From the IMG/VR virus record IMGVR_UViG_2531839531_000008: a stretch of DNA of 55,149 nucleotides. One strand, 5' to 3'. The translations under genes and the position numbers were made by a program. Shown piece by piece: positions 19,255 to 35,158 of the stretch. The notes under the pieces are model-generated. The model had not been told where the DNA came from. It did no database searches and was given only the letters and a program-made list of their open reading frames with translations. Numbering within the stretch: the first letter of the stretch is position 1; every line of letters begins with the position of its first letter. Source of the DNA: a virus. Lineage: Duplodnaviria > Heunggongvirae > Uroviricota > Caudoviricetes.

Positions 19255-19650
19255 ATGATGGAAAAAACAGAAAACAAACCGATTGTAATTGGTGCTGATG
19301 CTGCTCCGTTTAAGTTTGAGTTGTCTCAACTGGTGGAGATGCGTATCAGTGATGAATGGGGTGAGGTTAAAGCCCGTGCGCAGTATGCGGATGGCGAAAA
19401 CCAGTACTTGATCCACTACAAAGCAGCTGATGGTCGCGCCACGACGGAGTGGTTTGGTGAGTCAATGCTGGAAGCAACAGAAGATGATCGTCATCCGGGT
19501 TGTCCGGTATTTGCCGGTATGAAATTACCGGAAGGTGCAGTTGAACTGCAGCCGGGTGAGGTGTTCGTAATGACAGACATCATTGATGGTAAACCGCAGT
19601 ATTCGCGTATTGAAATGAATAGTAAGAGTGCTCGCCTGATTCGTGAGTAA
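19255..19650 (+). CDS. hypothetical protein between lysis cassette and cos
   Basis: 131 aa, AGGAG RBS. Confidence 0.4.
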   Translation: MMEKTENKPIVIGADAAPFKFELSQLVEMRISDEWGEVKARAQYADGENQYLIHYKAADGRATTEWFGESMLEATEDDRHPGCPVFAGMKLPEGAVELQPGEVFVMTDIIDGKPQYSRIEMNSKSARLIRE

Positions 19651-20036
19651 CAGGCATTACAGCAGCCCTTCACTCTAAGGGGTTGCTGTAATGTGAGAAA
19701 TAAAAAACCGGTCACAGGGAGCAGCTACACAGAAGCGGCCGGCGAAGACCGCCAATACCACCCATGCATTGATGCAACATACTAATGACAATAGCCGCTA
19801 TTGATGTAAATGCAATGTTATGCATCGACGAAAATAAAAAACCGGCAGGGGAAATCCATTGAAGATTTGCCGGTGGCAAAAGAGGGCCATGTTTTTAACC
19901 TTAGTCGCAGAGTTACGGAGTGCAACTACGAATGCTGCCGGTATATGGCTGAATGGCGTTTCAATGATGTACGTCATCTTATCTGTAAATGTTAATGACA
20001 AACGCTCTCATTTGTGCGGGTCCTTCCGGTGGGGTG

Positions 20037-20116
20037 GCCTGCCACGGGGCGGGAGCGTCGCGGAAAAAGGCTAGTTTTTGAAATTTTATTCGTCATCACC
20101 ACCACTGTAATAGATT
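20037..20116. other. cos region of prophage (cosN about 20066-20077 plus flanking cosB-like sequence)
   Basis: CCACG-GGGCGGGAGCGT-CGCGG resembles lambda cosN ACG-GGGCGGCGACCT-CGCGG as recalled; lies just upstream of terS. Confidence 0.6.
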
Positions 20117-20232
20117 GATATTACAGTGGTTTTATTTTTATGGTGTCGATTTTGATTGTTTTTTGTTCATCACTAACACCGTTTGCCTAAAGTTGTTCGC
20201 GAGATGCATGTTTAAAACATTCTGGAGCGGGT

Positions 20233-20727
20233 ATGGATCGAGAGTTAAAAAATCTGACGCTGAATATCAGTCAACTGGCGGCACTGTCAGGTGTACATCG
20301 CCAGACTGCTGCGGCAAGGCTGCAAAATCTACCCGTTGCAGGGGGGCATGAAAGCAACCTCAAGCTTTATCGGGTGGTTGATATTGTGTCGGCATTTCTG
20401 GCATTGCCACCGCCGGTTGCAGAAGGCGAAATGGACGCGCATGAGCGCAAAGCCTGGTATCAGTCTGAACGTGAGCGTCTTAAGTTCGAACAGGAAACGG
20501 CACAACTCATTCCGGCCAGTGATGTCAGACGGGAGTTTGCCATCTGGGCAAAAGCGGTCGTGCAGGTGCTGGAGACATTACCGGATATTCTGGAACGTGA
20601 CTGCGGTCTGCAGCCTGCCGCTGTGAGCCGTGTTCAGTCCATTATTGATGATCTGCGCGATCAGATAGCCCTGCGGGTGACTGAAGCAGGTGCGGATGAT
20701 GAGGAGGAATTACAGCAGGAGGAGTAA
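20233..20727 (+). CDS. terminase small subunit (Nu1/Noh-like)
   Basis: 164 aa, N-terminal wHTH-like, TAATG coupling to terL, immediately downstream of cos. Confidence 0.75.
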   Translation: MDRELKNLTLNISQLAALSGVHRQTAAARLQNLPVAGGHESNLKLYRVVDIVSAFLALPPPVAEGEMDAHERKAWYQSERERLKFEQETAQLIPASDVRREFAIWAKAVVQVLETLPDILERDCGLQPAAVSRVQSIIDDLRDQIALRVTEAGADDEEELQQEE

Positions 20728-21722
20728 TGCTGAATCAGGAAACCGCAAAGGCAGCACGAACCGATTCAGGTTATATCCTTCGCGCACCGAGACGAATGCG
20801 GGTTGCTGATGCCGTTGCTCAGTATATGCGGGTGCCCATGGGGGCAGGGAACTCAGTCCCGTGGGATCCGCTGGTGGCACCGTATGTTATTGAGCCGATG
20901 AACTGCCTGGCCTCGCGTGAATACGACGCAGTGATATTTGTTGGCCCGGCACGAACCGGCAAGACTATCGGCCTGATTGACGGCTGGGTGATTTACAACG
21001 TGATTTGCGATCCTGCTGATATGCTGATCATTCAGATGACGGAGGAAAAAGCCCGCGAACACTCCAAAAAACGACTCGCCAGAACGTTTCGCGTCAGCCC
21101 GGAAGTGGTCAGTCGCCTGAGTCCGAACAAAAATGACAACAACGTTTATGACAGAACATTCCTTGCTGGTAACTACCTGAAAATCGGCTGGCCGTCAGTC
21201 AATATCATGTCCTCATCAGATTATAAATGCGTCGCGCTGACGGATTATGACCGTTTTCCGGAAGATATTGATGGCGAGGGGGATGCTTTCTCTCTTGCCT
21301 CAAAACGTACCACCACATTTATGTCCAGCGGTATGACGCTGGTGGAGAGTTCCCCCGGCAGGGATGTGAAGGATGTGAAATGGCGACGGACTTCACCGCA
21401 TGAGGCTCCACCAACCACGGGGATCCTGTCGCTCTATAACCGTGGTGATCGCCGTCGCTGGTACTGGCCCTGTCCACACTGTGGTGAGTATTTTCAGCCC
21501 TGCGGCGATGTGGTTGCTGGTTTCCGTGATATTGCCGATCCCGTGCTGGCAAGTGAGGCGGCTTATATTCAGTGTCCTTCCTGTTCAGGACGGATTATGC
21601 CTGAACAAAAACGTGAGCTGAACGGACGTGGGGTCTGGTTGCGGGATGGTGAATCCATCAATGCGGATGGCAGTCGTTATGGTGATCCCCGACGCTCACG
21701 TATTGCGTCATTCTGGATGTAG
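20727..21722 (+). pseudogene. terminase large subunit (lambda gpA-like), N-terminal part, interrupted by satellite insertion
   Basis: 331 aa matching gpA N-terminal ATPase region incl. PCPHCGE motif; ends at TAG created at insertion junction. Confidence 0.8.
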
Positions 21723-21725
21723 GGT
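21713..21725. repeat. left direct repeat / att core of inserted satellite (CTGGATGTAGGGT)
   Basis: same 13-mer with one mismatch at 32312-32324. Confidence 0.6.
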
Positions 21726-21883
21726 ACATTTCTTACCTGTTTTTATGTTCTGGTGTCGTTTTATAGTCTTTTCAATGAGTTGTGATTTTTTGAGTTTCCT
21801 CTCTTTACTTGATAATGAGTTAGTTTATCGCTTGTTATCGACTTGAATGGACTACATGACGGACTAAAAAATGAGGGCGACAG

Positions 21884-23122
21884 ATGTCGGTAAAGCCATT
21901 AACCGTGACTGAAGTTAAGGGGATGAAACCACGTGAAAGGGACTATGCCGTTTATGATGGGTTCGGTTTATTGCTGAATGTGAGTAAAGCAGGTGGGAAA
22001 GTGTGGCGTTTCCGTTATAGCCATCCGATAACGAAGAAACGGCAGACATACACGATAGGGCGTTTTCCTGAATTCTCACTCGCGGAAGCACGGGAAGTAC
22101 GTGATGAACTTCGGCGAATGATTGCGCGTGGAGTTGATCCAGTGACAGAGAAGAAAAATCGTAAAATTGAGATGGCGCTAAAAAATCTACAGACATTTGA
22201 AGTCGTTGCTAATGCATGGTTCGCTTTTAAAAAAGGATCGGAGTTGAGGAAACCTACGTTGTATAATATCGAATATGAAGTATATAAGTATCTTGTTCCT
22301 TTCTTTGGTAAATACAGCATAGATAAAATTACAGCACCATTAGCAATTAAGACACTGGATGCCGTATCTGATAAAAACGCGCTGCAAAAAAAATTAATAT
22401 CAAGATTAAATGAAATCATGAATTACGCTGTAAATTGTGGCGCATTGAAAATAAATCCATTGCTTAAAATAAAGACAGCATTCACTGGAAAGAAAAATAA
22501 ATTATTAGCCGCGTTACCTATAGAAAGATTACCTGAATTTCTGAGCTGGTGGGATAGTGTGCCTCATAAGTATCAAATAGCTCACAATGCGCTTTTATTC
22601 CAGATATTGACAATGGTCAGGCCAGGTGAGGCGATTAAAGCAGAGTGGCCCGAGATTGATTTTGATTCTGGCTTGTGGATTATCCCCGCGCATAAAATGA
22701 AATGCCATCGTGAACATGTTGTGCCTCTCTCATCACAGGCTATTAGAATCCTAAGAACAATGCAGGAAATAAAAAGAGGGCGTTATATATTTTTTTCCTC
22801 CAGAACAAAAGATGCTCCTATGGGAAAGAATACTATCAATACCCCAATTGCTGCCAGCAAGTTCAAAGGGATTGTAACGTTACACGGTTTTCGTTCGATG
22901 TGGAGTACGCTTTTAAATGAGGAGGGTTTTAACCCTGATGTTATTGAGGCTGCATTAGCACATAAAAGTGGTGATAAAATAAGAGATATTTATAATAGAA
23001 CTACTTATTTAGAACAACGCAAAATTATGATGCAATGGGTAGGAGATTTTTTTGATGAGGCGAGAAAAGGGGTAATTAATAGATCCGGTGGTAAGAAAGG
23101 TTTGAGAATAGTAAATGGTTGA
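21884..23122 (+). CDS. int: P4-type tyrosine integrase (DUF4102 arm domain)
   Basis: 412 aa; N-terminus LT..E..G.KP...DY.V.DG.GL.L.V...G.K.WRFRY typical of P4 Int family; adjacent to left junction. Confidence 0.9.
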   Translation: MSVKPLTVTEVKGMKPRERDYAVYDGFGLLLNVSKAGGKVWRFRYSHPITKKRQTYTIGRFPEFSLAEAREVRDELRRMIARGVDPVTEKKNRKIEMALKNLQTFEVVANAWFAFKKGSELRKPTLYNIEYEVYKYLVPFFGKYSIDKITAPLAIKTLDAVSDKNALQKKLISRLNEIMNYAVNCGALKINPLLKIKTAFTGKKNKLLAALPIERLPEFLSWWDSVPHKYQIAHNALLFQILTMVRPGEAIKAEWPEIDFDSGLWIIPAHKMKCHREHVVPLSSQAIRILRTMQEIKRGRYIFFSSRTKDAPMGKNTINTPIAASKFKGIVTLHGFRSMWSTLLNEEGFNPDVIEAALAHKSGDKIRDIYNRTTYLEQRKIMMQWVGDFFDEARKGVINRSGGKKGLRIVNG

Positions 23123-23134
23123 GGAGTTCAGCAA

Positions 23135-23338
23135 ATGAATACCAATGAAGATATTTTATTTACTAAAGACGTAATGAAAATTTTGCGCTATGGGGCAATG
23201 AGCGCATTCATCAATTTCTGGAAAGATGAAAATAATGGTTTTCCTCAACCGTTCAGAATTGGGCGGCGGCATACCTGGCACCGCAGAGATGTAGAGGCAT
23301 GGTTAGATAAACAACGAGAACAGGCCAATCCCCACTAA
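23135..23338 (+). CDS. alpA: AlpA-family transcriptional regulator
   Basis: 67 aa small HTH protein directly after P4-type int. Confidence 0.65.
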   Translation: MNTNEDILFTKDVMKILRYGAMSAFINFWKDENNGFPQPFRIGRRHTWHRRDVEAWLDKQREQANPH

Positions 23339-23351
23339 TAATATCTTTCAT

Positions 23352-23378
23352 ACCCCGCACGCAATGCGGGGTTTTTTG
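23352..23378 (+). terminator. intrinsic terminator after alpA
   Basis: ccccgca-cgcaa-tgcgggg hairpin followed by TTTTTT. Confidence 0.6.
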
Positions 23379-23396
23379 TATGTGAGGTAAAAAACG

Positions 23397-23978
23397 ATGA
23401 ATAAAAATATTGCCGTGACGGGCAAGGGGTACGCTCGTTCAGTAAAAAAATTCTGCGATATTCGTGATCTTGTCGTTCTGCGCTTTGATGGCGTGGATGT
23501 TCGTGTGGTGTATCTGAACGGCGATCCGTGGTTTGTTGCAAAGGATGTTTGTGAAGCTCTGGAAATAAGCAACTCACGCGATGCTCTAAAAGCTCTGGAT
23601 GTGGATGAGAAGAATACCGTCGCTTTAAGCTACGGTATTCGCGGAAATCCAAATCATAGCGTCGTTTCTGAATCTGGTTTTTACAAGCTGATCGCCAGAA
23701 GTCGCAAAGCTGTTACTCCTGGCACGTTCGCCCATCGTTTCAGTAACTGGGTATTCAGGAATGTGATACCAGGTATCAGAAAAACGGGGGCTTATGGTAT
23801 CCCGTGGGGTGCATTACAGGATTTTTCCCGCCGTAAAGAGCAATATCAAATAAGTGCCAGCGAGAAGGGGAGGGAGCTACAGGCATGTAAGCGCAAAAAG
23901 CGTGAGCTGGAGGAAGAAGAAAAAAGGCTGATACGTGAATACCAGCCTGAGTTTTACTTTGGTGAGCGTATTCAGTAA
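23397..23978 (+). CDS. BRO-N domain protein (antirepressor-like)
   Basis: 193 aa; N-terminal BRO-N-like segment, lysine/glutamate-rich C-terminus. Confidence 0.6.
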   Translation: MNKNIAVTGKGYARSVKKFCDIRDLVVLRFDGVDVRVVYLNGDPWFVAKDVCEALEISNSRDALKALDVDEKNTVALSYGIRGNPNHSVVSESGFYKLIARSRKAVTPGTFAHRFSNWVFRNVIPGIRKTGAYGIPWGALQDFSRRKEQYQISASEKGRELQACKRKKRELEEEEKRLIREYQPEFYFGERIQ

Positions 23979-24370
23979 CCACACGCGGTGTTGATTATAC
24001 GGTACATCGTGTTGACCGGGAAGCTACCCACCAGCAAGGCAAAATCTTCTGCTAAAAAATGACATATGACCAGTCGTCCGGAAAGCATGAAATTTTACAA
24101 AAATGGAAAATGAAGATTTTTATTGTGCTGGTGGGTAAAAACAAAAAGCGCCCCGTTGCCGGAGCGCCCTTGCGAACAATTAACCTACTGCGCAAAAAAT
24201 GAATCAGTGCAGTGGGATTATATCAACCGTGTAGCGAAGCGCCACAATTGCCGGATAACAGGCAAAACAAAGGCCACCCGCTACGGTGGCCCCTCGACAC
24301 AAGCTACACGTTATCCCCAACGCATGAGCATTACCAACAATGCCACATTTGCGGCTGGTGGGCAATGTGA

Positions 24371-24559
24371 TCAGTCAGATTTGGTTCGTTCCAAGGTTTG
24401 CAACGAGAGTTTTTTCCTGCGCTCTTTAAGGAATTTCTCAAGAGCAAACGAACAAGGTGCGAATCTTTCTGATTCATGCTCTATCTTTCTGCGCCGTCTT
24501 TTCCGTGCCGGTGATAATGTTTTGGTCAATTCTTTATCGGTCATTGTGTTGTCCTGCAT
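24371..24559 (-). CDS. hypothetical small basic protein
   Basis: 62-aa ORF; terminator-like hairpin plus T-run on minus strand near 24270-24300. Confidence 0.35.
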   Translation of the reverse strand: MQDNTMTDKELTKTLSPARKRRRRKIEHESERFAPCSFALEKFLKERRKKLSLQTLERTKSD

Positions 24560-24601
24560 AGCAATGCGCCGTAATACCTTACACCACGGCGCTGGTGATG
24601 G

Positions 24602-24907
24602 TTATTCCTGCTCTTTGGCCTTGCGACGCTGGAGTTCTTCACGCGCGACGGTGATGAGTTGCCCGATCTCCTCGGCTGCTTTGACTCCGATTTTTTCCAC
24701 CTGCGCCAGTGCATCGAGCGAAGAAACCAGGGGATTTTCTCCGCTTCCTTCTGCCTGGCGGCGGGCGATCTCACCGCGAACGGCTGTAATCACGAAAGCG
24801 GCTATTGTTTCCCCTTCCGTTTTCGAATTTTCCATTTCCTCGATTACATCATGGGGGAAGCGGATATTTTTCATTTGCGATCTGCTGTTGATATTTCCTG
24901 TTGCCAT
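24602..24907 (-). CDS. hypothetical protein, candidate satellite regulator
   Basis: 101 aa; divergent from rightward operon; intergenic region 24908-25103 holds GTGTGTA/TGTACA repeat motifs. Confidence 0.45.
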   Translation of the reverse strand: MATGNINSRSQMKNIRFPHDVIEEMENSKTEGETIAAFVITAVRGEIARRQAEGSGENPLVSSLDALAQVEKIGVKAAEEIGQLITVAREELQRRKAKEQE

Positions 24908-25103
24908 CAGAATGTCCGGTTATTTTGAGGTGTGCATACATTACATCAAAAGGTGTGTAAATAAAACACTTGACACTGTAGCGCACTTAAATTTAATCTG
25001 TACACACACCAATGATTGTGGTGTATGTACAGCAAAGCCCCGCAGTGCTGGAACACATGCAGGGCTTCTAACCACCAACGATAGCGAAAGTATCGAGGTA
25101 GCT

Positions 25104-25310
25104 ATGAGAAATTATACCAGACACCCGCAAGGGCGGGACTCGTACAACCTGAATAAATACATCTGGCGTTTTATCGCCCTGAGCACGGCACAACCGCGCG
25201 TGATTACCATTGAGGCCACCAGCGAACAGGAAGCGCGTCAGCAATCTCCTGATGGCTGCGTGATGGTATTCGCTGCCCGTATTCGCCAGGGGGAAACCTA
25301 TGCACAATAA
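25104..25310 (+). CDS. hypothetical small protein
   Basis: 68 aa with GAGG RBS; first gene of rightward operon. Confidence 0.4.
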   Translation: MRNYTRHPQGRDSYNLNKYIWRFIALSTAQPRVITIEATSEQEARQQSPDGCVMVFAARIRQGETYAQ

Positions 25311-25536
25311 AACCACACCGGACGCAGCCGCCGAAGCCATCAAAACGCTGATGCACGCGCTGATTGATATTTCTGTTATCGCAGACAAGGCGCATAAGCA
25401 CGCCACCAGCGAAACAGAATATGCCGGGGCTTTCGTTCCTCACTCACTGGCTCTTATGCAATTTAGTGCTGATATGGCGCTGAATGAGGCAGGCAAAATT
25501 CTTACCGCAGATATTCAGGGGGTGCACCATGCATGA
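25300..25536 (+). CDS. hypothetical small protein
   Basis: 78-aa ORF overlapping neighbours by a few nt. Confidence 0.35.
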   Translation: MHNKTTPDAAAEAIKTLMHALIDISVIADKAHKHATSETEYAGAFVPHSLALMQFSADMALNEAGKILTADIQGVHHA

Positions 25537-25756
25537 TGACTGTTATCTTAAATCAATGAGCCATGCAGAAAACGCACTGACTAACAGTGAATGTTTGAGG
25601 CAAATATTTCTTATCTGGCTTGATGGTTTAAGTGATGCGCCGGAAGATGAGCGTGAATCTAATCTTGCTGGTGCGTTTATTTCATTACTCGATACGGTAA
25701 TCGTCGAATTAAATAAAGCGATCGAAATTCACGATAAAAAAATAAACGCGGAATAA
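25529..25756 (+). CDS. hypothetical small protein
   Basis: 75 aa from internal ATG. Confidence 0.35.
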   Translation: MHDDCYLKSMSHAENALTNSECLRQIFLIWLDGLSDAPEDERESNLAGAFISLLDTVIVELNKAIEIHDKKINAE

Positions 25757-25761
25757 AAACC

Positions 25762-26049
25762 ATGAAAAATAAAAATTCTGGCTTTACTGCCAGCGGCCCC
25801 GCTCGGCCTGAAATCCGCCCCGGCGATATTTTCCGGGATAACTATGGCGGCACGGTAACGATAAAAGGCGTGGCAGAACGGCGCATCACTTACCGCCGTG
25901 ATGGCTACGAATATGACTGCGTGATGCCTGTTTATCAGTTCCGGCGTGATTTCACGCTGGTGGGCCATCGTAAAGCCGTAAATCAGAAACGTGCAGCAAG
26001 TCATATCCGCAAAATTCGTGAAATGCTGGTCGCAGGGGGTAAAAAATGA
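25762..26049 (+). CDS. hypothetical small protein
   Basis: 95-aa ORF, ATGA-coupled to primase gene. Confidence 0.4.
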   Translation: MKNKNSGFTASGPARPEIRPGDIFRDNYGGTVTIKGVAERRITYRRDGYEYDCVMPVYQFRRDFTLVGHRKAVNQKRAASHIRKIREMLVAGGKK

Positions 26050-27860
26050 AACTGGCACCGAACGTAAAACAGCAGTCACGCGGCATAAAACACAAAGAAA
26101 CAGAAGTCATTATTTTTGCGGGTAGTGATGCCTGGTCACACGCAAAACAATGGCAGGAACATGACGCGCGTATGGCCGGAGATAATGAGCCTCCTGTGTG
26201 GCTTGGGGAGCAGCAGTTATCTGAACTGGATAAGCTGCAAATTGTGCCGGAAGGCAGAAAATCCGTGCGCATATTCAGGGCCGGATATCTTGCGCCAGTA
26301 ATGATAAAGGCGATTGGTCAGAAGCTGGCGGCGGCAGGCGTACAGGATGCAAATTTTTATCCTGAGGGTATGCACGGCCAGGAGGTGCAGAACTGGCGCG
26401 AATATCTGGCCCGTGAGCGCCAGAATCTTTCTGATGGTCTGGTGATTCAGCTTCCTGTTAAGAAAAAAACAGAAGACAGCGCCGCACCACTGGCGCTTAA
26501 CCAGATGGGAGCAAGCCAGCGCGGCGAAGTTCTCCTGGCACATTATGGCGGTGAACTGGCGATTCATGCCGACTCTGACACTGTTCACCATTACAACGGC
26601 GTTGTATGGGAGCCGATTCAGGATAAAGAGTTACAGCGTGCTATGGCGCAGATTTTCATTGATGCGGAGATCAGCTATTCGCAGAACGCCATTAAATCGG
26701 CGGTCGATACCATGAAGTTAAGTTTGCCTGTAATGGGGAATACAGCCCGTAACCTGATTGGATTCAGTAACGGGGTATTTGATACCAGAACAGGTAATTT
26801 TCGGGAGCATAACAAAAACGACTGGTTGTTAATTGCCAGTGAATTACCTTTCAGCCCACCAGCAGAGGGGGAAACGCTGGCAACACATGCGCCGAATTTC
26901 TGGAAGTGGTTACGCCGCTCGGTGGCAGAGAATGACCGCAAGACGGATCGCGTGCTGGCTGCATTATTCATGGTGCTGGCGAACCGGTACGACTGGCAGT
27001 TATTCATTGAGGTAACAGGTCCAGGGGGAAGTGGTAAAAGCGTGATGGCGGAGATTTGCACTATGCTGGCGGGTAAGGCCAACACAGTATCGGCAAGCAT
27101 GAAGGCGCTGGAAGATGCAAGGGAACGCGCGTTAGTGGTTGGCTTTTCGCTGATTATCATGCCGGATATGACCCGCTACGCTGGTGATGGCGCAGGAATT
27201 AAGGCCATTACAGGCGGTGACAAGGTGGCAATCGACCCGAAGCATAAAGCCCCCTACTCAACACGCATTCAGGCGGTCGTGCTGGCGGTGAACAATAACG
27301 CCATGTCATTCAGTGACCGCAGCGGGGGGATCTCACGTCGTCGGGTGATATTCAATTTTTCGGAGGTTGTACCGGAGAACGAGCGCGACCCCATGCTGGC
27401 AGAAAAAATAGAAGGAGAGCTGGCGGTTGTGATTCGCCATCTGCTTACTCGTTTTTCTGACCAGGACGAAGCTAAACGCCTGCTGTATGAGCAGCGGAAA
27501 TCAGAAGAAGCTCTGGTGATAAAACGCGAGGGCGATTCGCTGGTGGACTTCTGTGGCTATCTCATGTCGTCGGTAATGTGTGATGGTCTGTTAGTGGGTA
27601 ATGCCGAAATTATTCCGTTCAGTCCGCGCAGGTATCTTTATCACGCCTATCTGGCATATATGAGGGCACACGGATTCGGTAAACCTGTAACACTGACGCG
27701 CTTCGGTAAAGATATGCCGGGGGCAATGGCGGAATATGGCAGGGAGTATATAAAACGGAAAACGAAGCACGGTTTGCGTTCAAATGTGACACTGACAGAG
27801 GATTCAGAAGACTGGATGCCATCATGTGCATCGGTCACAAATGACGACAGCAAAAATTAA
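26046..27860 (+). CDS. satellite replication protein: primase/SF3-helicase family (P4 alpha C-terminal-like)
   Basis: 604 aa; Walker A GPGGSGKS; followed by iteron array. Confidence 0.8.
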   Translation: MKLAPNVKQQSRGIKHKETEVIIFAGSDAWSHAKQWQEHDARMAGDNEPPVWLGEQQLSELDKLQIVPEGRKSVRIFRAGYLAPVMIKAIGQKLAAAGVQDANFYPEGMHGQEVQNWREYLARERQNLSDGLVIQLPVKKKTEDSAAPLALNQMGASQRGEVLLAHYGGELAIHADSDTVHHYNGVVWEPIQDKELQRAMAQIFIDAEISYSQNAIKSAVDTMKLSLPVMGNTARNLIGFSNGVFDTRTGNFREHNKNDWLLIASELPFSPPAEGETLATHAPNFWKWLRRSVAENDRKTDRVLAALFMVLANRYDWQLFIEVTGPGGSGKSVMAEICTMLAGKANTVSASMKALEDARERALVVGFSLIIMPDMTRYAGDGAGIKAITGGDKVAIDPKHKAPYSTRIQAVVLAVNNNAMSFSDRSGGISRRRVIFNFSEVVPENERDPMLAEKIEGELAVVIRHLLTRFSDQDEAKRLLYEQRKSEEALVIKREGDSLVDFCGYLMSSVMCDGLLVGNAEIIPFSPRRYLYHAYLAYMRAHGFGKPVTLTRFGKDMPGAMAEYGREYIKRKTKHGLRSNVTLTEDSEDWMPSCASVTNDDSKN

Positions 27861-27872
27861 ACTTATGGAATA

Positions 27873-28103
27873 ACTGTTCACCACTGTTCACCCTGTTATA
27901 AATATCTTTTATATCAGTACATTATAGGGTGAACAGTTATTTGTGAACTGTTCACCAAACTATTCACTGTTCACCTTTTTGATTATTTATTGAGCTTTAA
28001 GGGTGAACAGTGGTGAACAGTTGGTGAATAGTTTTTGTGAAACTATTCACCCCTTAACATTATGAATAAAAAGGGAAAATCTCAAAAGGTGAACAGGTGA
28101 AGG
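27873..28103. repeat. iteron array, probable satellite replication origin
   Basis: about 12 copies of CTGTTCACC / GGTGAACAG in both orientations in AT-rich DNA right after primase gene. Confidence 0.65.
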
Positions 28104-28147
28104 GTTAAAATGCAAAAATTTTATTTTATTGCTGTGAGGTAAAGCCT

Positions 28148-28393
28148 GTGACAACGAAGCACGCAAAAAAACCACAATCTCACGCCCTTGATTTGACAGA
28201 ACACTGGCTGAGGGTGGCGATAAAAATCATCGACCGCAACGCGGGAGAAGGGTACGCAAAAGCACATCCCGAACTGGTAAGCGCACTCATGACCACGGCA
28301 GCGGCAAACTTTGCCACGCTGACAGAACGGGAGATTGCCGAAGCGGAACAGGTGACAACCATCAACGTTAAAACCGGAGAGCAGACAGCATGA
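28148..28393 (+). CDS. hypothetical protein
   Basis: 81 aa, GTG start with GAGG RBS. Confidence 0.4.
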   Translation: MTTKHAKKPQSHALDLTEHWLRVAIKIIDRNAGEGYAKAHPELVSALMTTAAANFATLTEREIAEAEQVTTINVKTGEQTA

Positions 28394-28812
28394 CAGCACA
28401 GATAGCAGCTTACGGGCGGCTGGTGGCTGACCCGCAGTTAAAGACCACCAGCAAAGGGACACAAATGGCGATGGCGAGTATGGCGGTTCCCCTGCCGTGC
28501 AGCCAGGCCGATGACGGAACGGCGACGATGTGGTTATCCGTCCTGGCGTTTGGCAGACAGGCCGATGCACTGGCAAAGCACCACAAAGGCGAACTGGTGA
28601 GCGTGGCGGGTAACATGCAGGTAAGCCAGTGGACAGGCCAGAACGGCGAAACGCGGCAGGGCTGGCAGGTTATCGCAGACAGCGTAATCAGTGCGCGAAC
28701 GGCGCGACCGGGCGGCAAAAAAGGCCAGCAGGGCCAGGCTACTGACGCGCTGAACAGAGCAAAACAACTGGCGGGGAATGATGATCCGTACGGGGATAAC
28801 ATACCGTTTTAA
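28390..28812 (+). CDS. SSB-like single-stranded DNA-binding protein
   Basis: 140 aa; Gly/Gln-rich linker and acidic tail ending DNIPF, cf. E. coli SSB tail DDDIPF. Confidence 0.55.
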   Translation: MTAQIAAYGRLVADPQLKTTSKGTQMAMASMAVPLPCSQADDGTATMWLSVLAFGRQADALAKHHKGELVSVAGNMQVSQWTGQNGETRQGWQVIADSVISARTARPGGKKGQQGQATDALNRAKQLAGNDDPYGDNIPF

Positions 28813-28827
28813 GCAACGAGTAACAGA

Positions 28828-28850
28828 AGCCGGAGCAATCCGGCTTTTTT
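28828..28850 (+). terminator. intrinsic terminator after SSB-like gene
   Basis: agccgg-agcaat-ccggct hairpin followed by TTTTTT. Confidence 0.6.
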
Positions 28851-28852
28851 AT

Positions 28853-28924
28853 GGGTCCTTCCTGTGGAGCGGCCTTGCCACGGGGCGGGAGCGGCGCGGA
28901 AAACGGCTGATTTTTGCATTTTCA
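28853..28924. other. satellite cos copy 1 (cosN about 28883-28894)
   Basis: about 85 percent identical by eye to prophage cos element; cosN GGGCGGGAGCGG. Confidence 0.55.
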
Positions 28925-29410
28925 AGGCGGCGGCAGCATGTGCGGTAATTTATTGATAATTAAAAGTTATTTCTCTTTTCACCTGTACAATATTTTTTTC
29001 TCCCTGTCATTAGACCAGTTTTCAATTAATTGAAATATATAAATAAATCTGATTTTCACCTGCCGGATGGAGTTGCCTACACCAATTCAGGCCAGATTTT
29101 TGCGTCAGAATCTGATTAATCTGTTTTTGTGATAGAAATTTGTTTATCTACCACTTATATAGATCAATAATGTGCATAGTTTAGGCAGACATAGGGGGCT
29201 TACTGTGAGTTGTATTAATAACCTGAACACAGGCGACATCAGAGGCGGATCCGTTCATCTGGATGCGCAAACTGTTATGCGCCTTAAGCAATACAGAATT
29301 GACCATGTGAAGAATCACCCTGAACAACCGTTACCAGGTGTGGCGCAGATTGTCAGACATGCCGTAAACGCCTGGCTTAATCAGAATGGTTTGGCATCGG
29401 GGAATAAGCA

Positions 29411-31327
29411 ATGAATCGCTGGTACACCATTAAAGCGGCGGATGTTCGCGGGACGGCGGAGATATCCATCTATGAGGAAATTGGTGGCTTTGGTATTACC
29501 GCGAAGCAGTTCACGGAAGATCTGAAAGTCCTTGGCGATGTTTCACATATCAATCTGAGGATCCATTCACCAGGTGGCGACGTGTTTGAAGGTATCGCCA
29601 TCTATAACCTGCTACGGAATCATCCGGCAGACATTACGGTTTATATAGATGGCGTGGCGGCTTCAATGGCTTCGGTCGTTGCAATGGCTGGCGATCGCGT
29701 TGTTATGCCGGAGAACGCCATGATGATGATCCATAAGCCGTGGGGTATCTCTGGCGGAAATGCTGGCGATATGCGTGATTATGCTGATTTGCTGGATAAG
29801 GTGGAAACCGTGTTAATCCCTGCTTATGCCAGAAAAACGGGCAAATCAGCACAGGAAATTGCCACCATGCTGGAAGATGAAACCTGGATGGACGGGAAAG
29901 AATGCCTTAAGCACGGTTTTGCTGATGAATTGTTGCCATCTGTCAGAGCAATGGCGCGAATTGAATCGAAACGTACAGGAGATTTTTTACATATGCCGGA
30001 AACCATTAAGGGAATGATTACCCCGCCGAAATCACAGGCAAAAAACACCATTACAGGCGACCAGGAGCGCATTAACGGCATTAAAGAAATTTTTAGCGTG
30101 TTCGGCAACCAGTACGACGGGATCAAAATGTCGTGCCTTGAAGATGCGTCCTGTACGCTGGAAATGGCCCGTGAACGCCTGCTTAAAGAAATGGGTAAGA
30201 ACCACACACCAACCAATAAAAATATTCCGTCTCATATCTATGCCGGAAACGGGAACATAACAGGCGATGCGATTCGCCAAGGGCTTTATTCCCGTCTTGG
30301 GTATGAGCGTCCTGAGCGGGGAAATCCTTACGCGATGATGAGCCTTTTTGAAATGGCCCAGGCATCACTAACTGATCGTGGTATCAGTGTTGGCGGTTTT
30401 TTAAATCGCTCGCAGGTCGTTAATGCAGCTTTCACACACAGCAGCAGCGATTTTTCTCATATTCTGGCTGGCGGTGCTGAAAAATCAGTGCTGAAAGGCT
30501 GGCAGGACAGCGGCGAAACGTTCCAGAAATGGACGCGTACCGGTTCGCTTTCAAACTTTCATGAAGCAAAACGCGTTGGCCTGAATGGCTTTTCAAAACT
30601 AGATAAAGTACCGGAAGGTGCGGAATATAAATACATCACCACCAGCGATAAAGGTGTACCTATTGCGCTGGCCACGTACGGGAATATTTTTTCCGTTACC
30701 CGTCAGGCCATTATCAACGATGACCTGACCCAGTTAACTACAATCCCCATGGCGATGGGACGCGCAGCCGCCAGAACAGTTGGCAATCTGGTTTATCTCC
30801 TGTTAACCAGCAATGGCAAGTTTACGGATGGTAAAGCGTTATTCCATGCCGATCATAAAAATCTTATTGCGAAGGATATGGACATGGTGGGGCTTGATGA
30901 AGCCCGTAAGCTGATGCGCCTCCAGGAAGACGCTAACGGCGATTCCCTGAATATTACCCCTGCTTTTGTTCTGGTCCCTGCCGCGCTGGAGTCTGCCGCA
31001 CATCGCGCCATTCTGTCATCGTCATCACTCTTTCCGGTTGGTAATGAGAGCACTCTCAATCAGAACCCGGGCATCATTAACGTGGTGAAAGATATGGCAG
31101 AAGTAATTGTTGAGCCACGTCTTGATAAGGCCAATAGCAAGGAATGGTATGTAGCCGCAGCTAAGGGGATGGACACGATAGAGGTCGCTTATCTTGACGG
31201 TATTGATACGCCATATCTTGAGGAGCAGGAGGGCTTTACTGTTGATGGTGTCGCATGGAAGGTGCGCATTGATGCAGGTGTCGCGGCCCTCGACTATCGC
31301 GGATTACTGAAATCGAGTGGAGCATGA
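29411..31327 (+). CDS. satellite prohead protease (ClpP/S49-like) fused to major capsid protein
   Basis: 638 aa; N-terminal protease region HSPGGDVFEG...AASMASV; C-terminal HK97-fold capsid-like region; paralog of prophage gene 35159-37117. Confidence 0.75.
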   Translation: MNRWYTIKAADVRGTAEISIYEEIGGFGITAKQFTEDLKVLGDVSHINLRIHSPGGDVFEGIAIYNLLRNHPADITVYIDGVAASMASVVAMAGDRVVMPENAMMMIHKPWGISGGNAGDMRDYADLLDKVETVLIPAYARKTGKSAQEIATMLEDETWMDGKECLKHGFADELLPSVRAMARIESKRTGDFLHMPETIKGMITPPKSQAKNTITGDQERINGIKEIFSVFGNQYDGIKMSCLEDASCTLEMARERLLKEMGKNHTPTNKNIPSHIYAGNGNITGDAIRQGLYSRLGYERPERGNPYAMMSLFEMAQASLTDRGISVGGFLNRSQVVNAAFTHSSSDFSHILAGGAEKSVLKGWQDSGETFQKWTRTGSLSNFHEAKRVGLNGFSKLDKVPEGAEYKYITTSDKGVPIALATYGNIFSVTRQAIINDDLTQLTTIPMAMGRAAARTVGNLVYLLLTSNGKFTDGKALFHADHKNLIAKDMDMVGLDEARKLMRLQEDANGDSLNITPAFVLVPAALESAAHRAILSSSSLFPVGNESTLNQNPGIINVVKDMAEVIVEPRLDKANSKEWYVAAAKGMDTIEVAYLDGIDTPYLEEQEGFTVDGVAWKVRIDAGVAALDYRGLLKSSGA

Positions 31328-31333
31328 CAACAA

Positions 31334-31356
31334 GGGCGGCGAAAGCCGCCTTTTTT
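31334..31356 (+). terminator. intrinsic terminator after satellite capsid gene
   Basis: gggcggc-gaaa-gccgcc hairpin followed by TTTTTT. Confidence 0.6.
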
Positions 31357-31358
31357 AC

Positions 31359-31433
31359 GGGTCCTCCCGGTGGGGTGGCCTGCCACGGGGCGGGAGCGGC
31401 GCGGAAAAAGGCTAGTTTTTGCATTTTCATTCA
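31359..31433. other. satellite cos copy 2 (cosN about 31388-31399)
   Basis: near-identical to prophage cos element; homology continues into terS homolog. Confidence 0.6.
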
Positions 31434-31583
31434 TCATCATCATCTTTTCAATGCATTGAATTTAAACGAATTTTATTTTTAGTATGTTAATTTTGCGTGT
31501 TTTTTGGTCAACATATAACGCACTTTATAACGCTTTTTGAAAAGGTGTTCGCAAGATGCATGTTTAAAACGTCAGGAGGGGAT

Positions 31584-32069
31584 ATGGATCGTGAGTTGAA
31601 AAATCTGATGCTGAACATTAACCAACTGGCGGCAATAGCAGGTATATGTCGTCAGACTGCGGCGGCAAGGCTGAAAAACATCCAGCCAGCCGGAGGACAT
31701 GACAAGCTGAAACTCTATCGGGTGACTGACATTCTGACCTGTTTTCTTGATCTTCCCGTTCCGGCATCACTGGAAGAAATGGAGCCACATGACCGCAAGG
31801 CTTGGTATCAGTCTGAACGTGAGCGCCTCAAGTTCGAACAGGAAACGGCGCAACTCATACCCGCCGATGATGTGCGAAAAGAGATGGCTATATGGGGGGA
31901 AATCGTAAGCGAGGAACTGGCAAAACTCCCCAATATTCTGGCACGTGATGCAGGGCTTAAACCGATGGCAGTAAACAGAGTGCAGTCAATTATTGACGAT
32001 TTGTGTAATCAGATTATCAGCCGGATGGTAAAAAATGACGCAGTGAATGAGGATGTAAAACAGGCATGA
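31584..32069 (+). CDS. satellite terminase small subunit homolog
   Basis: 161 aa, roughly 60 percent identical by eye to prophage TerS; AGGAGG RBS; preceded by cos copy. Confidence 0.7.
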   Translation: MDRELKNLMLNINQLAAIAGICRQTAAARLKNIQPAGGHDKLKLYRVTDILTCFLDLPVPASLEEMEPHDRKAWYQSERERLKFEQETAQLIPADDVRKEMAIWGEIVSEELAKLPNILARDAGLKPMAVNRVQSIIDDLCNQIISRMVKNDAVNEDVKQA

Positions 32070-32311
32070 TAATGACCGACGCCGTGATCCGCCGTGCCAC
32101 CGGAATCAGACTACCAGAAGGTAAACAGAAGGCCACGCAGTCGGGCAGCGTCATCGTGTTAATGCATGGCGGCGTATTCAGCTTTTAATTAATATTGCTG
32201 CCTTTTTCTTTTTTTTATCGCTTAGGCAGGTACTAAATCTTGGACTATGTGAATGGGGTTACAACTAAATAGTACCTTATAATCATTTGGTTACCTTTTA
32301 TTTACTTCTTC

Positions 32312-32324
32312 CTGGATGGAGGGT
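32312..32324. repeat. right direct repeat / att core of inserted satellite (CTGGATGGAGGGT)
   Basis: matches 21713-21725 with one mismatch; lies at resumption of terL reading frame. Confidence 0.6.
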
Positions 32325-33428
32325 CCGGCAGCTGCTTACCAGACACTCTCGCAACTCGTTTACAAACTGCTTACTGCAGAACAGGAATACGAGACAACCG
32401 GAAGTGAAGAAACACTCAGGGCGGTTATCAATACCGACTGGGGATTACCTTATCTTCCCCGCGCCAGCATGGAGCAACGAAAAAGTGAACTGCTTGAGCA
32501 GCGGGCAGAGCCAGTTCTTTCCCGCAGTGTGCCGGATGGCGTTAATTTCCTTGTGGCGACAGTGGATGTGCAGGCGGGACGTCATCGCCGTTTTGTGGTT
32601 CAGGTAACGGGCTATGGCAGCCGTGGCGAACGCTGGATTATTGATCGTTACAACATCACGCAGTCATTGCGCGGTGACAGCGACGGGGAGAGCCAGCGAA
32701 TTGATCCGGCCAGCTATCCGGAAGACTGGGATGTCCTGCTGACGGATGTTTTTCATAAAAGCTGGCCGCTGGCCTCCGATCCTTCTCAACAAATGCGACT
32801 GATGGCAATGGCGGTGGACTCCGGCGGTGAAGACGGGGTCACTGATAATGCCTATAAATTCTGGCGTCGTTGCCGTCGTGATGGCCTTGGTAAACGTATT
32901 TACCTGTTTAAGGGCGACAGCATCCGGCGCGCAAAACTGATCACCCGTACATTCCCTGATAACACCGGACGAACGGGCCGACGGGCGCAGGCCGCAGGTG
33001 ATGTGCCGCTCTGGCTTCTTCAGACGGATGCACTGAAAGACCGGGTGAATAACGCGTTATGGCGTGACTCGCCAGGTCCAGGCTATGTGCATTTCCCTGA
33101 CTGGCTGGGGAGCTGGTTTTACGACGAACTGACGTATGAAGAGCGGAGCAGTGACGGGAAATGGAGTAAGCCGGGTCGCGGTGCCAACGAAGCTTTTGAC
33201 CTGATGGTGTATGCCGAGGCTCTGGTCATTCTGCATGGATACGAAAAGATCCGCTGGCCGGATGCACCGGAGTGGGCGAGCCGGGAAACCTGGCTGGAGT
33301 GTGTCCAGGACAGTACTGAACCGTCATCCTCACCGGAACCGGTATCCACGCCTGTTAAAAAACAAAAACGGAAGAAAACAGTAACTGACGATGTTAACCC
33401 CTGGCTGACTTCCGGAGGATGGTTATGA
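32316..33428 (+). pseudogene. terminase large subunit (gpA-like), C-terminal part downstream of satellite insertion
   Basis: 370 aa matching gpA C-terminal nuclease region; joins in frame with 20727-21719. Confidence 0.8.
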
Positions 33429-33637
33429 ACCAGAATGATATCGAAGCCATGATTCAGCGTTATACGGAAGCTGAAATGGCGGTGCTGGACGGAAAATCCG
33501 TCACCTTTAATGGTCAGCAGATGACCATGGAAAACTTATCTGAGATCCGGCAGGGACGGCAGGAGTGGGAGCGCCGCCTTGCGGCTCTGATTACACGACG
33601 ACGGGGGCATCCCGGGTACCGGCTGGCGAGGTTCTGA
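33419..33637 (+). CDS. head-tail joining protein W-like
   Basis: 72 aa, resembles lambda gpW in size and position. Confidence 0.6.
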   Translation: MVMNQNDIEAMIQRYTEAEMAVLDGKSVTFNGQQMTMENLSEIRQGRQEWERRLAALITRRRGHPGYRLARF

Positions 33638-35145: not shown

Positions 35146-35158
35146 TTCCTGGTTCAGG

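What the first reader, a model, noticed from the sequence alone, without database searches (positions are those of the whole stretch)
28853..31433. The cos site is present three times: once in the prophage and twice in direct orientation in the satellite
The element at 20037-20116 upstream of prophage terS contains CCACG-GGGCGGGAGCGT-CGCGG, close to lambda cosN as I recall it (ACG-GGGCGGCGACCT-CGCGG). Nearly the same 75-80 bp recurs at 28853-28924 and 31359-31433, both with cosN GGGCGGGAGCGG. Each island copy follows an intrinsic terminator. The two island copies bracket only a small ORF and the capsid gene, about 2.5 kb apart. Two cos sites in one small replicon is unusual and bears on how the satellite, or the prophage with the satellite in place, is cut and packaged.
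Basis: partly seen in the sequence, partly recalled or inferred. Interest (0 to 1): 0.75.

Follow-up and report, generated by a model that had tools for sequence, protein, structure and literature searches.

The report
Satellite carries two different cos sites
A small phage satellite sitting inside a prophage's terminase gene carries two real DNA-packaging (cos) sites that share a cutting site but have different recognition halves. One matches a different phage lineage and the other comes with the satellite's own small terminase, so the satellite can probably be packaged by more than one kind of helper phage.

Summary
There are three co-oriented lambda-type cos sites with cosN at 20047, 28883 and 31388. 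Each has cosQ (GGGTCCT) 29-30 nt upstream of an ACG|GGGCGGGAGCG(T/G)|CGCGG cosN. The motif occurs 3 times against 0.01 expected. Two phage records (Tritos, cdtI) start exactly at this cosN.

The interpretation needs correcting in two ways.

- **The copies are not equivalent.** Only about 75-95 bp (cosQ, cosN and about 30 bp) is shared. Copy A (prophage) and copy C carry related cosB regions followed by DUF1441 terS genes (65% aa identity). Copy B carries the complete cosB of a different lambdoid lineage (Tritos/cdtI: 91.6% over 227 bp, ending at that phage's terS start codon) but has no terS.
- **Two cos sites in a satellite is not unprecedented.** EcCICFT073 has cos1 and cos2. Here the pair recurs in at least 13 related satellites, always B upstream and C downstream.

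The satellite is a 10.6-kb helper-embedded PICI splitting the prophage terL. Among phages, cosB type and TerS type are tightly linked.

Best reading (inferred): the satellite has dual packaging specificity, with one borrowed phage cos and one private cos plus its own TerS. EcCICFT073 cos2 likewise matches the cos of PhiR12 phages.

Verdict: a new variant of a known kind, of moderate interest.

The parts
20018..20232 (+). cos A of the resident lambdoid (mEp460/phi458-like) prophage. cosQ 20018-20024, cosN 20047-20058 (GGGCGGGAGCGT), cosB up to the terS start. R-like direct repeats at 20076-20108 and 20150-20182 flank a 12-bp inverted repeat/IHF-like site at 20101-20130.
   Evidence: (99% to phi458, mEp460)
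20233..20727 (+). Prophage terS (TerS_A, DUF1441 family, 164 aa)
20727..21722 (+). 5' part of prophage terL (gpA ATPase domain, 331 codons), cut off by the satellite insertion
21711..21725 (+). attL core (CTGGATGTAGGGT region) of the satellite inside terL
21711..32325 (+). Helper-embedded PICI satellite, 10,600 bp. It carries int 21884-23122, an alpA-like gene 23135-23338, Bro-N 23397-23978, primase 26046-27860, ori iterons 27859-28107, SSB 28390-28812, cos B, the capsid cassette, cos C and terS_C.
   Evidence: class described in PMC10111431
28829..28850 (+). Intrinsic terminator (GCCGGA-GCAA-TCCGGC + T6) abutting cosQ of copy B. Nearly the same hairpin precedes cos1 of EcCICFT073.
28853..29079 (+). 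cos B. cosQ 28853-28859, cosN 28883-28894 (GGGCGGGAGCGG), then a complete Tritos/cdtI-type cosB (TTTTCACCTG repeats at 28976 and 29053, IHF-like site about 28948-28960). No terS follows.
   Evidence: (91.6% over 227 bp to joined Tritos ends)
29172..31327 (+). Cassette between the two satellite cos sites: an 80-aa ORF (phrog_4934, unknown function) and a 638-aa ClpP-protease/major-capsid fusion. The fusion is about 56-57% identical to every phage homologue found.
31335..31356 (+). Intrinsic terminator (GGCGGC-GAAA-GCCGCC + T6) abutting cosQ of copy C
31359..31583 (+). cos C. cosQ 31359-31365, cosN 31388-31399 (GGGCGGGAGCGG), and a cosB related to the prophage type (about 70% identity). R-like repeats at 31417-31440 and 31491-31514 have the same 74-bp spacing as in A.
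31584..32069 (+). Satellite terS (TerS_C, DUF1441, 161 aa). It is 65% identical to TerS_A and 96-98% identical to the TerS of related satellites in the IMG/VR loci compared. The region after residue 100 and the C-terminal tail diverge from the helper TerS.
32311..32325 (+). attR core (CTGGATGGAGGGT)
32316..33428 (+). 3' part of prophage terL (gpA nuclease domain, 370 codons). Joined to the 5' part at the att core it gives one intact 700-aa TerL, 87.6% identical to Tritos TerL.

Best explanation
**Shown by sequence.**
- The window holds a mEp460-like lambdoid prophage of about 44 kb. Its terL (gpA family) is split by a 10.6-kb helper-embedded PICI.
- All three repeats are lambda-type cos sites sharing cosQ, cosN and about 30 bp to the right of cosN. 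By lambda analogy these are the parts TerL uses for cutting and for terminating packaging.
- The copies differ in cosB, the TerS-recognition half needed to start packaging.
- cos A is the prophage's own site and is served by TerS_A.
- cos C is the satellite's private site: a related but diverged cosB followed immediately by the satellite's own terS.
- cos B is a full copy of the cos of a second lambdoid lineage (Tritos/cdtI type). Its homology stops at the point where that phage's terS would begin.

**Inferred mechanism.**
- The satellite has two packaging entry points of different specificity.
- With a helper like the resident prophage, satellite TerS_C would recruit the helper's TerL to cos C. 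This is a SaPI-like 'own TerS' strategy applied to a cos system.
- With a Tritos/cdtI-type helper, the helper's own TerS would recognise cos B directly. This is a P4/SaPIbov5-like 'carry the helper's cos' strategy.
- Because cosQ and cosN are common to both, either site can also act as a terminator for a terminase that started at the other.
- Packaging runs rightward from cosN, as in lambda. C to B is 8,095 bp and B to C is 2,505 bp.
- In full-size heads of about 44-46 kb, concatemer cuts at 39.9, 42.4 or 44.9 kb all fall within a lambda-like permitted length range.
- Nothing can be packaged by the resident prophage until the satellite excises and restores terL.
For: **These are cos sites.**
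- cosQ and cosN are conserved with lambda at the same spacing.
- The motif occurs 3 times against 0.01 expected.
- The Tritos and cdtI phage records start or end exactly at ACG|GGGCGGGAGCGT.

**B carries the cosB of a second phage type.**
- Window 28853-29079 is 91.6% identical over 227 bp to the joined ends of Tritos. The homology stops at the Tritos terS ATG.

**There are distinct specificity groups.**
- Tritos TerS is only 42% identical to TerS_A, with a different N-terminal domain. TerL is 87.6% identical. This resembles the lambda vs phage 21 situation.
- Across the cos sites found in 120 IMG/VR stretches and the earlier loci, cosB type and TerS type co-vary in phage context. Among sites with room downstream to type a TerS, 56 of 58 A-type cosB sites have an A-type TerS of at least 85% identity, and 21 of 22 B-type cosB sites have a Tritos-type TerS.
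- In satellite context, 15 of 16 B-type cosB sites lack a terS, and 15 of 15 C-type sites are followed by TerS_C.

**The arrangement is conserved.**
- 13 dual-cos satellites all have B upstream and C downstream, 2.5 kb apart (3.3 kb in two). They use different integrases and integration sites, for example the chromosomal cspD-clpS site in L007.
- Satellite B-cosB copies differ by 3.6% with no indels. The adjacent non-coding DNA differs by 5.7% with 9% gaps.
- About 9 near-fixed differences separate the satellite B copies from the phage copies, so this is an old, maintained lineage rather than a fresh capture.

**The pattern generalises.**
- EcCICFT073 cos1 sits upstream of rppA. Its unexplained cos2 is 93.3% identical over 179 bp to the cos lying between Rz and Nu1 of the PhiR12 phages.

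**Published function.**
- Both EcCICFT073 cos sites are functional in transfer assays (PMC6092414; PMC6739421).
Against: - No experiment here shows cutting at any of the three sites. The phage record starts may follow convention rather than mapped ends, and I could not find how the Tritos ends were determined.
- Some relatives lack copy B (A20, L024, L031) or lack the whole B-C cassette (L125), so B is dispensable for persistence.
- In EcCICFT073, deleting cos2 raised transfer by lambda and phi80. A second cos can therefore be costly with a non-cognate helper.
- cosB B is only modestly more conserved than its neighbours.
- I could not test whether genomes carrying the satellite are enriched for Tritos-type prophages.
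- It is untested whether TerS_C binds the resident TerL. The region after residue 100 and the C-terminal tail differ from TerS_A.
Confidence: 0.6

Rival explanations
1. Copy B is a functionless scar of late-gene capture or of recombination at cos. The capsid cassette entered, or two PICIs fused, by recombination at a shared cos, leaving a spare cos that is merely tolerated.
For: - PICI late zones are dynamic and capture helper late genes (PMC10111431).
- B has no terS.
- Relatives without B exist, and so does a cassette-less derivative with one hybrid cos (L125).
- Deleting cos2 of EcCICFT073 does not reduce transfer.
Against: - B is retained with intact cosQ, a cosN intact in all but one copy (one substitution in L100), and an indel-free cosB of about 190 bp in the 13 dual-cos satellites, which use different integrases and integration sites.
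- It carries near-fixed satellite-specific substitutions, which implies long vertical maintenance.
- The capsid gene is only about 57% identical to any phage capsid while cosB B is about 91% identical to the phage version. The two were therefore not captured together recently.
- The homology ends precisely at the phage terS start codon.
Confidence: 0.2
2. Copy B works mainly as a terminator or length-setting site. Packaging always starts at cos C with TerS_C and ends at B or C. This gives extra permissible cut points in concatemers, or 8.1-kb capsid-less genomes for small heads.
For: - In lambda, termination needs cosQ and cosN but not cosB (PMC9026076). B and C share exactly those parts.
- C-to-B lengths such as 3 x 10.6 + 8.1 = 39.9 kb fit a head of about 44.5 kb (coordinates; phage sizes).
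- L125 has the structure expected of a C-to-B product: SSB, terminator, a hybrid cos with the B left half and the C right half, then terS_C.
- The left halves of B and C are identical or nearly so within 5 of 13 elements, while the right halves keep position-specific bases.
Against: - A pure terminator would not need about 190 bp of another phage's cosB kept free of indels.
- L125 and the shared left halves are equally explained by ordinary recombination or gene conversion between 94-bp direct repeats.
- Within-element similarity is only weakly above between-element similarity overall (3.2 vs 4.3 edits).
Confidence: 0.15
3. The repeats are not packaging sites at all. They would be chance or regulatory repeats, for example terminator-associated elements.
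For: Both satellite copies abut intrinsic terminators. No ends were mapped here.
Against: - The motif is present 3 times against 0.01 expected.
- cosQ and cosN are collinear with lambda.
- The position between the lysis genes and terS is the canonical one.
- Phage records start at this base.
- The prophage copy has no terminator.
- Homologous sites in EcCICFT073 are experimentally functional cos sites.
Confidence: 0.02

Closest known systems
EcCICFT073 (E. coli PICI) with cos1, cos2 and RppA (Fillol-Salom 2018, 2019; PMC6092414, PMC6739421)
   Same: - Same overall PICI layout: int, alpA, Icd-like, DUF4222, primase, SSB, small ORF, capsid, cos, specificity gene, small ORF, attR.
- Two cos sites share cosQ and cosN with the helper phages but have other cosB sequences.
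- A near-identical terminator hairpin abuts the cos.
- One cos lies directly upstream of the gene that sets packaging specificity.
   Different: - There the specificity gene is rppA. Here it is a full terS homologue (DUF1441).
- The cosN type differs: GGGCGGCGACCT there, GGGCGGGAGCG(G/T) here.
- There the two sites are inverted and 0.8 kb apart, flanking rppA. Here they are direct and 2.5 kb apart, flanking the capsid gene.
- EcCICFT073 is chromosomal, not embedded in its helper.
Helper-embedded PICIs (HE-PICI, e.g. 11capE in prophage 50icd; Tommasini, Mageeney and Williams 2023, PMC10111431)
   Same: [quoted passage not shown]
- It has the same four zones: integration, Bro, replication and late.
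- The interrupted late gene is restored only on excision.
- The satellite carries its own homologue of helper late genes.
   Different: - 11capE lacks terS, and a single shared cos-like region of 258 bp is reported for it.
- The att core found here in a gpA-type terL (CTGGATGGAGGGT) did not turn up in that paper's stored att alignments. The catalogued A-gene sites I saw are in Terminase_1-type TerL.
Lambda vs phage 21 packaging specificity (cosB/Nu1 pairs with common cosQ/cosN)
   Same: Phages with closely related TerL and the same cosN/cosQ fall into groups with different TerS N-terminal domains and matching cosB. Termination does not depend on cosB (PMC9026076).
   Different: - Here the TerS belongs to the DUF1441 family, not Nu1.
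- The R-sequence architecture differs.
- Both specificities sit on a single satellite genome.
SaPI strategies: SaPI1-type own TerS; SaPIbov5 (helper cos plus capsid homologue Ccm); SaPIbov4 (two putative cos sites)
   Same: A satellite-encoded TerS homologue, carriage of a helper-type cos, and a satellite-encoded capsid-protein homologue are all known satellite devices (PMC6092414; PMC5052747 and PMC8569155 abstracts).
   Different: - Those are Gram-positive systems with unrelated sequences.
- The SaPI TerS acts on pac sites.
- The papers I could search do not describe the own-TerS and borrowed-cos strategies combined in one element.
Capsid-forming PICIs (cf-PICI)
   Same: The satellite encodes its own terS and its own protease/major capsid protein.
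   Different: cf-PICIs encode the whole capsid and packaging set: terS, terL, portal, protease, capsid and connectors (abstract). This element has no terL, portal or connector genes.

Membership tests
Lambda-type cos site | cosN: a 12-bp staggered-nick site with conserved flanks (ACG | 12 nt | CGCGG) | tested here: met
   The flanks are identical to lambda in all three copies, and 7-8 of the 12 core bases are identical. The Tritos and cdtI records begin at the first G of the core.
Lambda-type cos site | cosQ (GGGTCCT) about 30 bp upstream of cosN | tested here: met
   GGGTCCT is present 29-30 nt upstream in A, B and C, against 30 nt in lambda. That this heptamer (lambda 48473-48479) is cosQ rests on my recollection of Wieczorek and Feiss 2001. 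The papers read here confirm only that cosQ lies upstream of cosN and is needed for termination.
Lambda-type cos site | cosB: TerS-binding repeats and an IHF site between cosN and terS | tested here: inconclusive
   - A and C have R-like direct repeats 74 bp apart flanking an IHF-consensus-like site (my reading).
- B equals the phage Tritos/cdtI cosB.
- Protein binding was not tested.
Lambda-type cos site | Lies immediately upstream of terS and a gpA-family terL | tested here: met
   - A: terS then terL.
- C: terS only.
- B: no terS, although the homologous phage site has one.
Lambda-type cos site | Cleaved by terminase to give the cohesive ends of virion DNA | not testable with these tools
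   This needs end mapping of virion DNA or in vitro cleavage.
PICI / helper-embedded PICI | Small (10-20 kb) unidirectional element with int, alpA, a Bro zone, primase plus ori, and a late zone | tested here: met
   - The element is 10,600 bp.
- int, Bro-N, D5-type primase and SSB were identified.
- Iterons lie 3' of the primase.
- Relatives are annotated the same way.
PICI / helper-embedded PICI | [quoted passage not shown] | tested here: met
   - terL is split at 21722 and 32316.
- The shared core is CTGGATG(T/G)AGGGT.
- The in-silico join gives one 700-aa ORF, 87.6% identical to Tritos TerL.
- The same arrangement occurs in E. coli A20, SCU-125, EC42405 and O121 strains.
PICI / helper-embedded PICI | Induced, excised, replicated and transferred by a helper phage | not testable with these tools
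   No experiment was possible.
Rpp-type cos PICI (EcCICFT073 family) | An rpp gene directly downstream of the required cos site | tested here: not met
   The gene after cos C is a DUF1441 TerS with no PDB match to RppC. The EcCICFT073 gene at the same position does match RppC at E = 5e-31.
Capsid-forming PICI | Encodes terL, portal and head-tail connectors as well as capsid and terS | tested here: not met
   Only terS and the protease/capsid fusion are present.

The most novel reading that the evidence does not exclude
E. coli PICIs may generally carry a two-key packaging module. One key is a private cos served by the satellite's own specificity protein (TerS or Rpp). The other is a second, complete cos copied from another lambdoid lineage. 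Together they would let one satellite be mobilised by helper phages of at least two packaging-specificity groups. This would also explain the so far unexplained cos2 of the model PICI EcCICFT073. Exchange at the shared cosN could additionally drive gain and loss of the capsid cassette and shuffling of cos halves.
Probability: 0.4. Interest if true: 0.65.

Novelty: new variant of a known kind. Interest (0 to 1): 0.5.

Why it matters
- Which phages can act as helpers sets how far satellites, and the virulence or defence genes they carry, can spread.
- If the two cos sites are keys to two different terminase specificities, helper range could be read directly from satellite sequence by matching each cosB to phage cosB/TerS types.
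- The role of the second cos in the model PICI EcCICFT073 has been unclear since 2018. This reading gives it a concrete hypothesis that can be tested with existing phages (Tritos, cdtI, PhiR12, mEp460).
- The data also show a cos-type satellite that uses its own TerS. In addition, the embedded satellite places three co-oriented cos sites on one molecule while holding the helper's terL hostage.

Tried and rejected
- **Small ORF as an Rpp.** No PDB match to RppC or to anything else.
- **Small ORF as a leftover of a portal C-terminus** (which would suggest that deletion of terS through portal from a captured phage late region left cos B). No similarity at protein or DNA level.
- **Rfam scan of 19000-33500** for C4/isrK-type immunity RNAs or anything else at the repeats. 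Nothing at gathering score.
- **Consensus terminator scan.** It did not list the two + strand terminators, so I folded them directly.
- **Concerted evolution test.** Five of 13 elements have identical or nearly identical left halves in B and C. Overall, though, within-element distance is only slightly below between-element distance. Gene conversion explains this as well as cos-mediated joining, so I do not count it as evidence of cutting.
- **The 12th cosN base (T in A, G in B and C) as a helper/satellite discriminator.** Rejected, because it is polymorphic in both contexts.
- **How the Tritos ends were determined.** Not stated in the papers held.
- **This terL att site in the HE-PICI paper's supplements.** Not found, although one file was truncated.
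- **First guesses at the CFT073 coordinates** hit a prophage and chromosomal genes before EcCICFT073 was found.
- **Co-occurrence of the satellite with Tritos-type prophages** could not be computed, because hit lists are capped.
Full report
**1. The observation**

Reading the three places and aligning them confirms a shared block on the + strand. A self-BLAST of the window gives these pairs:
- B 28831-28924 vs C 31337-31429: 86% over 94 bp.
- A 20018-20086 vs B 28853-28922: 86% over 70 bp.
- A 20011-20666 vs C 31352-32014: 73.6% over 671 aligned columns.

The pattern GGGTCCT-N18-26-GGGCGG occurs exactly three times in 55 kb, against 0.01 expected from shuffles. The cosN cores are GGGCGGGAGCGT (A, 20047-20058) and GGGCGGGAGCGG (B, 28883-28894; C, 31388-31399). 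Folding confirms a strong hairpin plus U6 directly before B and C and none before A.

**2. They are lambda-type cos sites**

I joined the right and left ends of lambda and aligned them with the three copies. The alignment shows:
- the heptamer GGGTCCT, which I recall as cosQ (lambda 48473-48479), 29-30 nt before cosN, against 30 nt in lambda;
- identical flanks, ACG | 12 nt | CGCGG;
- 7-8 of the 12 core bases identical.

Copy A lies between the lysis genes and terS-terL, which is the canonical place. The cos A/terS region is 98-99% identical to phages phi458, vB_EcoS-569R4 and mEp460.

Two phage records carry the same cosN at their ends. Tritos (OV696610, linear) starts at GGGCGGGAGCGT and ends at ...CCACG. 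cdtI (AB285204) starts at the same base. This supports the lambda-like nick position. I could not establish whether those ends were mapped experimentally. For related phages with fused protease-coat genes, the cos has so far only been inferred (PMC12315714).

**3. Context: a satellite inside terL**

- The ORF after terS_A is only the ATPase half of a gpA-type TerL (331 codons, stop at 21722). The nuclease half resumes at 32316.
- In between lie int, an alpA-like gene, Bro-N, a D5-type primase, SSB, a small ORF, a ClpP-protease/major-capsid fusion and a second DUF1441 terS. About 11 iterons sit just after the primase.
- The junctions share the core CTGGATG(T/G)AGGGT. Joining them in silico gives one 700-aa TerL.
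- The element is 10,600 bp and is a helper-embedded PICI, a class described by Tommasini, Mageeney and Williams (PMC10111431).
- The same composite occurs in E. coli A20, SCU-125, EC42405 and O121 strains.
- The rest of the window is a lambdoid prophage (integrase, RecE-like exonuclease, CI-type repressor, tail genes). Without the satellite it is about 44 kb, similar to mEp460 (44,510 bp) and phi458 (44,850 bp).

**4. The three cos sites are not equivalent**

- Downstream of about +42 from cosN, A and C stay alignable (about 70%) up to their terS start codons. B diverges completely.
- The B-specific sequence is not anonymous. Window 28853-29079 is 91.6% identical over 227 bp to the joined ends of phage Tritos, and equally close to cdtI. 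The homology ends at the ATG of that phage's terS.
- Tritos TerS is DUF1441 too, but only 42% identical to TerS_A, with a different N-terminal (DNA-binding) part. TerS_C is 65% identical to TerS_A.
- The TerL proteins are 87.6% identical, which fits the shared cosN and cosQ.
- Each cosB type has its own repeat architecture. A and C have R-like repeats 74 bp apart around an IHF-like site. B has TTTTCACCTG twice, 77 bp apart (and direct reading).

**5. Population evidence**

The linkage table also includes the window and earlier loci, and counts only sites with at least 750 bp downstream:

| Context | cosB type | TerS that follows | Count |
|---|---|---|---|
| Phage | A-type | A-type TerS (at least 85% identical) | 56 of 58 |
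| Phage | B-type | Tritos-type TerS | 21 of 22 |
| Satellite (terminator upstream) | B-type | none | 15 of 16 |
| Satellite (terminator upstream) | C-type | TerS_C | 15 of 15 |

- Thirteen elements, including the window, carry both sites, always B upstream and C downstream, 2.5 kb apart (3.3 kb in two).
- Several of these have integrases only about 21% identical to the one here, and one sits at the chromosomal cspD-clpS site. The module is therefore older than its present location.
- At least 80% of the SSB-to-terS module is present in 152 of 5,426 complete E. coli genomes.
- Among satellites the B cosB differs by 3.6% with no indels. The next 95 bp of non-coding DNA differs by 5.7% with 9% gaps. 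About nine near-fixed substitutions separate satellite copies from phage copies.
- The capsid gene is only 56-57% identical to any phage homologue.
- Variants exist. A20, L024 and L031 lack B. L125 lacks the small ORF and capsid gene and has a single hybrid cos, with the B-type left context and the C-type cosB, in front of terS_C. L080 is a phage with the window's C-type cosB and a chimeric TerS.

**6. Comparison with the known two-cos PICI**

- EcCICFT073 was reported to have two functional cos sites. cos1 is required for transfer, and deleting cos2 raises it. Rpp redirects the helper TerS to the cos1 cosB.
- I located the element in CFT073. Its two sites are inverted, at L006 27529 (+) and 28339 (-), flanking a gene that matches RppC at E = 5e-31.
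- The gene order is otherwise the same as here, and a near-identical terminator hairpin abuts cos1.
- cos2 is 93.3% identical over 179 bp to the cos of the PhiR12 phages, which lies between Rz and Nu1. The match covers cosQ, cosN and about 115 bp of cosB.
- So in both PICI types one cos is private and sits next to the specificity gene (rpp or terS). The other is a near-complete copy of some phage lineage's cos.

**7. Mechanism**

Established for lambda: initiation needs cosN plus cosB bound by TerS, and termination needs cosQ plus cosN (PMC9026076).

The following is inferred, not shown.
- cos C with TerS_C gives packaging by helpers whose TerL accepts TerS_C, such as the resident prophage.
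- cos B gives packaging by Tritos/cdtI-type helpers through their own TerS.
- Either site can terminate a run started at the other.
- Distances in the excised circle are 8,095 bp from C to B and 2,505 bp from B to C.
- Possible concatemer products are 42.4 kb (4 units), 39.9 kb (3 units plus C-to-B) and 44.9 kb (4 units plus B-to-C). All are 89-101% of a 44.5-46.4 kb helper genome.
- From memory of lambda work (Feiss and Siegele 1979), a downstream cos is cut poorly when little DNA has been packaged. That would limit premature cutting at the nearby site.
- In the integrated composite, cos A, B and C lie 8.8 and 2.5 kb apart on one molecule. No TerL can be made from that molecule until the satellite excises.

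**8. Rivals**

- B could be a tolerated scar of late-gene capture.
- B could be chiefly a terminator or length-setting site.
- The deletion variant L125 and the shared left halves fit cos-to-cos joining. They fit plain recombination between 94-bp direct repeats equally well.
- The chance or non-cos reading is excluded for practical purposes.

**9. Verdict**

- The feature is real and conserved.
- The element belongs to known classes (PICI, HE-PICI), and multiple cos sites have precedent.
- What I did not find described in the papers searched is the pairing of a borrowed phage cos with a private cos plus own terS in direct orientation around the capsid gene, and the match of EcCICFT073 cos2 to a phage cos.
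- I rate it a new variant of a known kind, with moderate interest.

Noticed in passing
L006 28100-28345 (minus strand; E. coli CFT073, EcCICFT073 cos2): The unexplained second cos of the model PICI EcCICFT073 is 93.3% identical over 179 bp (cosQ, cosN and about 115 bp of cosB) to the cos lying between Rz and Nu1 in phages PhiR12_1 to PhiR12_5. Its cosB carries three CCGGACAT-like repeats.
   Followed up: partly
window 21711-21725 and 32311-32325: The att core CTGGATGGAGGGT, in the FWMEG codons of a gpA-type terL, was not found in the att alignments held for the HE-PICI survey paper. The A-gene sites I saw there are in Terminase_1-type TerL. This may be an uncatalogued HE-PICI integration site.
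   Followed up: partly
window 27859-28107: There are about 11 copies of the iteron GGTGAACAGT in both orientations immediately after the satellite primase gene. This is presumably the satellite replication origin.
   Followed up: no
L125 (IMGVR_UViG contig, 7341 bp held), cos at about 6375: A natural relative has SSB, a terminator, one hybrid cos (B-type left context, C-type cosB) and terS_C, and lacks the small ORF and capsid gene. This is the product expected from deletion between the two cos sites.
   Followed up: partly
L080 (IMG/VR phage contig), cos at 402 on the reverse strand: This phage has a cosB 98.7% identical to the window's satellite copy C, and a chimeric TerS (90% identical to TerS_A, 73% to TerS_C). 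It points to exchange of cosB/terS segments between phages and satellites.
   Followed up: partly
window 29411-31327 vs 35000-37117: The satellite protease/capsid fusion is only 56-57% identical to all phage homologues found. It is about 28 codons shorter than the helper's in the linker between the protease and capsid parts, which could bear on head size.
   Followed up: no
window 31584-32069 (TerS_C residues about 100-161): Satellite TerS proteins share a distinct region after residue 100 and a non-acidic C-terminal tail. The helper and Tritos TerS share an acidic tail. In lambda Nu1 this end binds TerL.
   Followed up: no
window 53927-54084 and 54976-55133: A 158-bp direct repeat (87% identity) lies near the tail-fibre end of the prophage.
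   Followed up: no
window 20101-20130: A perfect 12-bp inverted repeat (ACCACTGTAATA / TATTACAGTGGT) is centred on an IHF-consensus-like sequence inside the prophage cosB. Copy C has the palindrome TTCAATGCATTGAA at the equivalent place.
   Followed up: no
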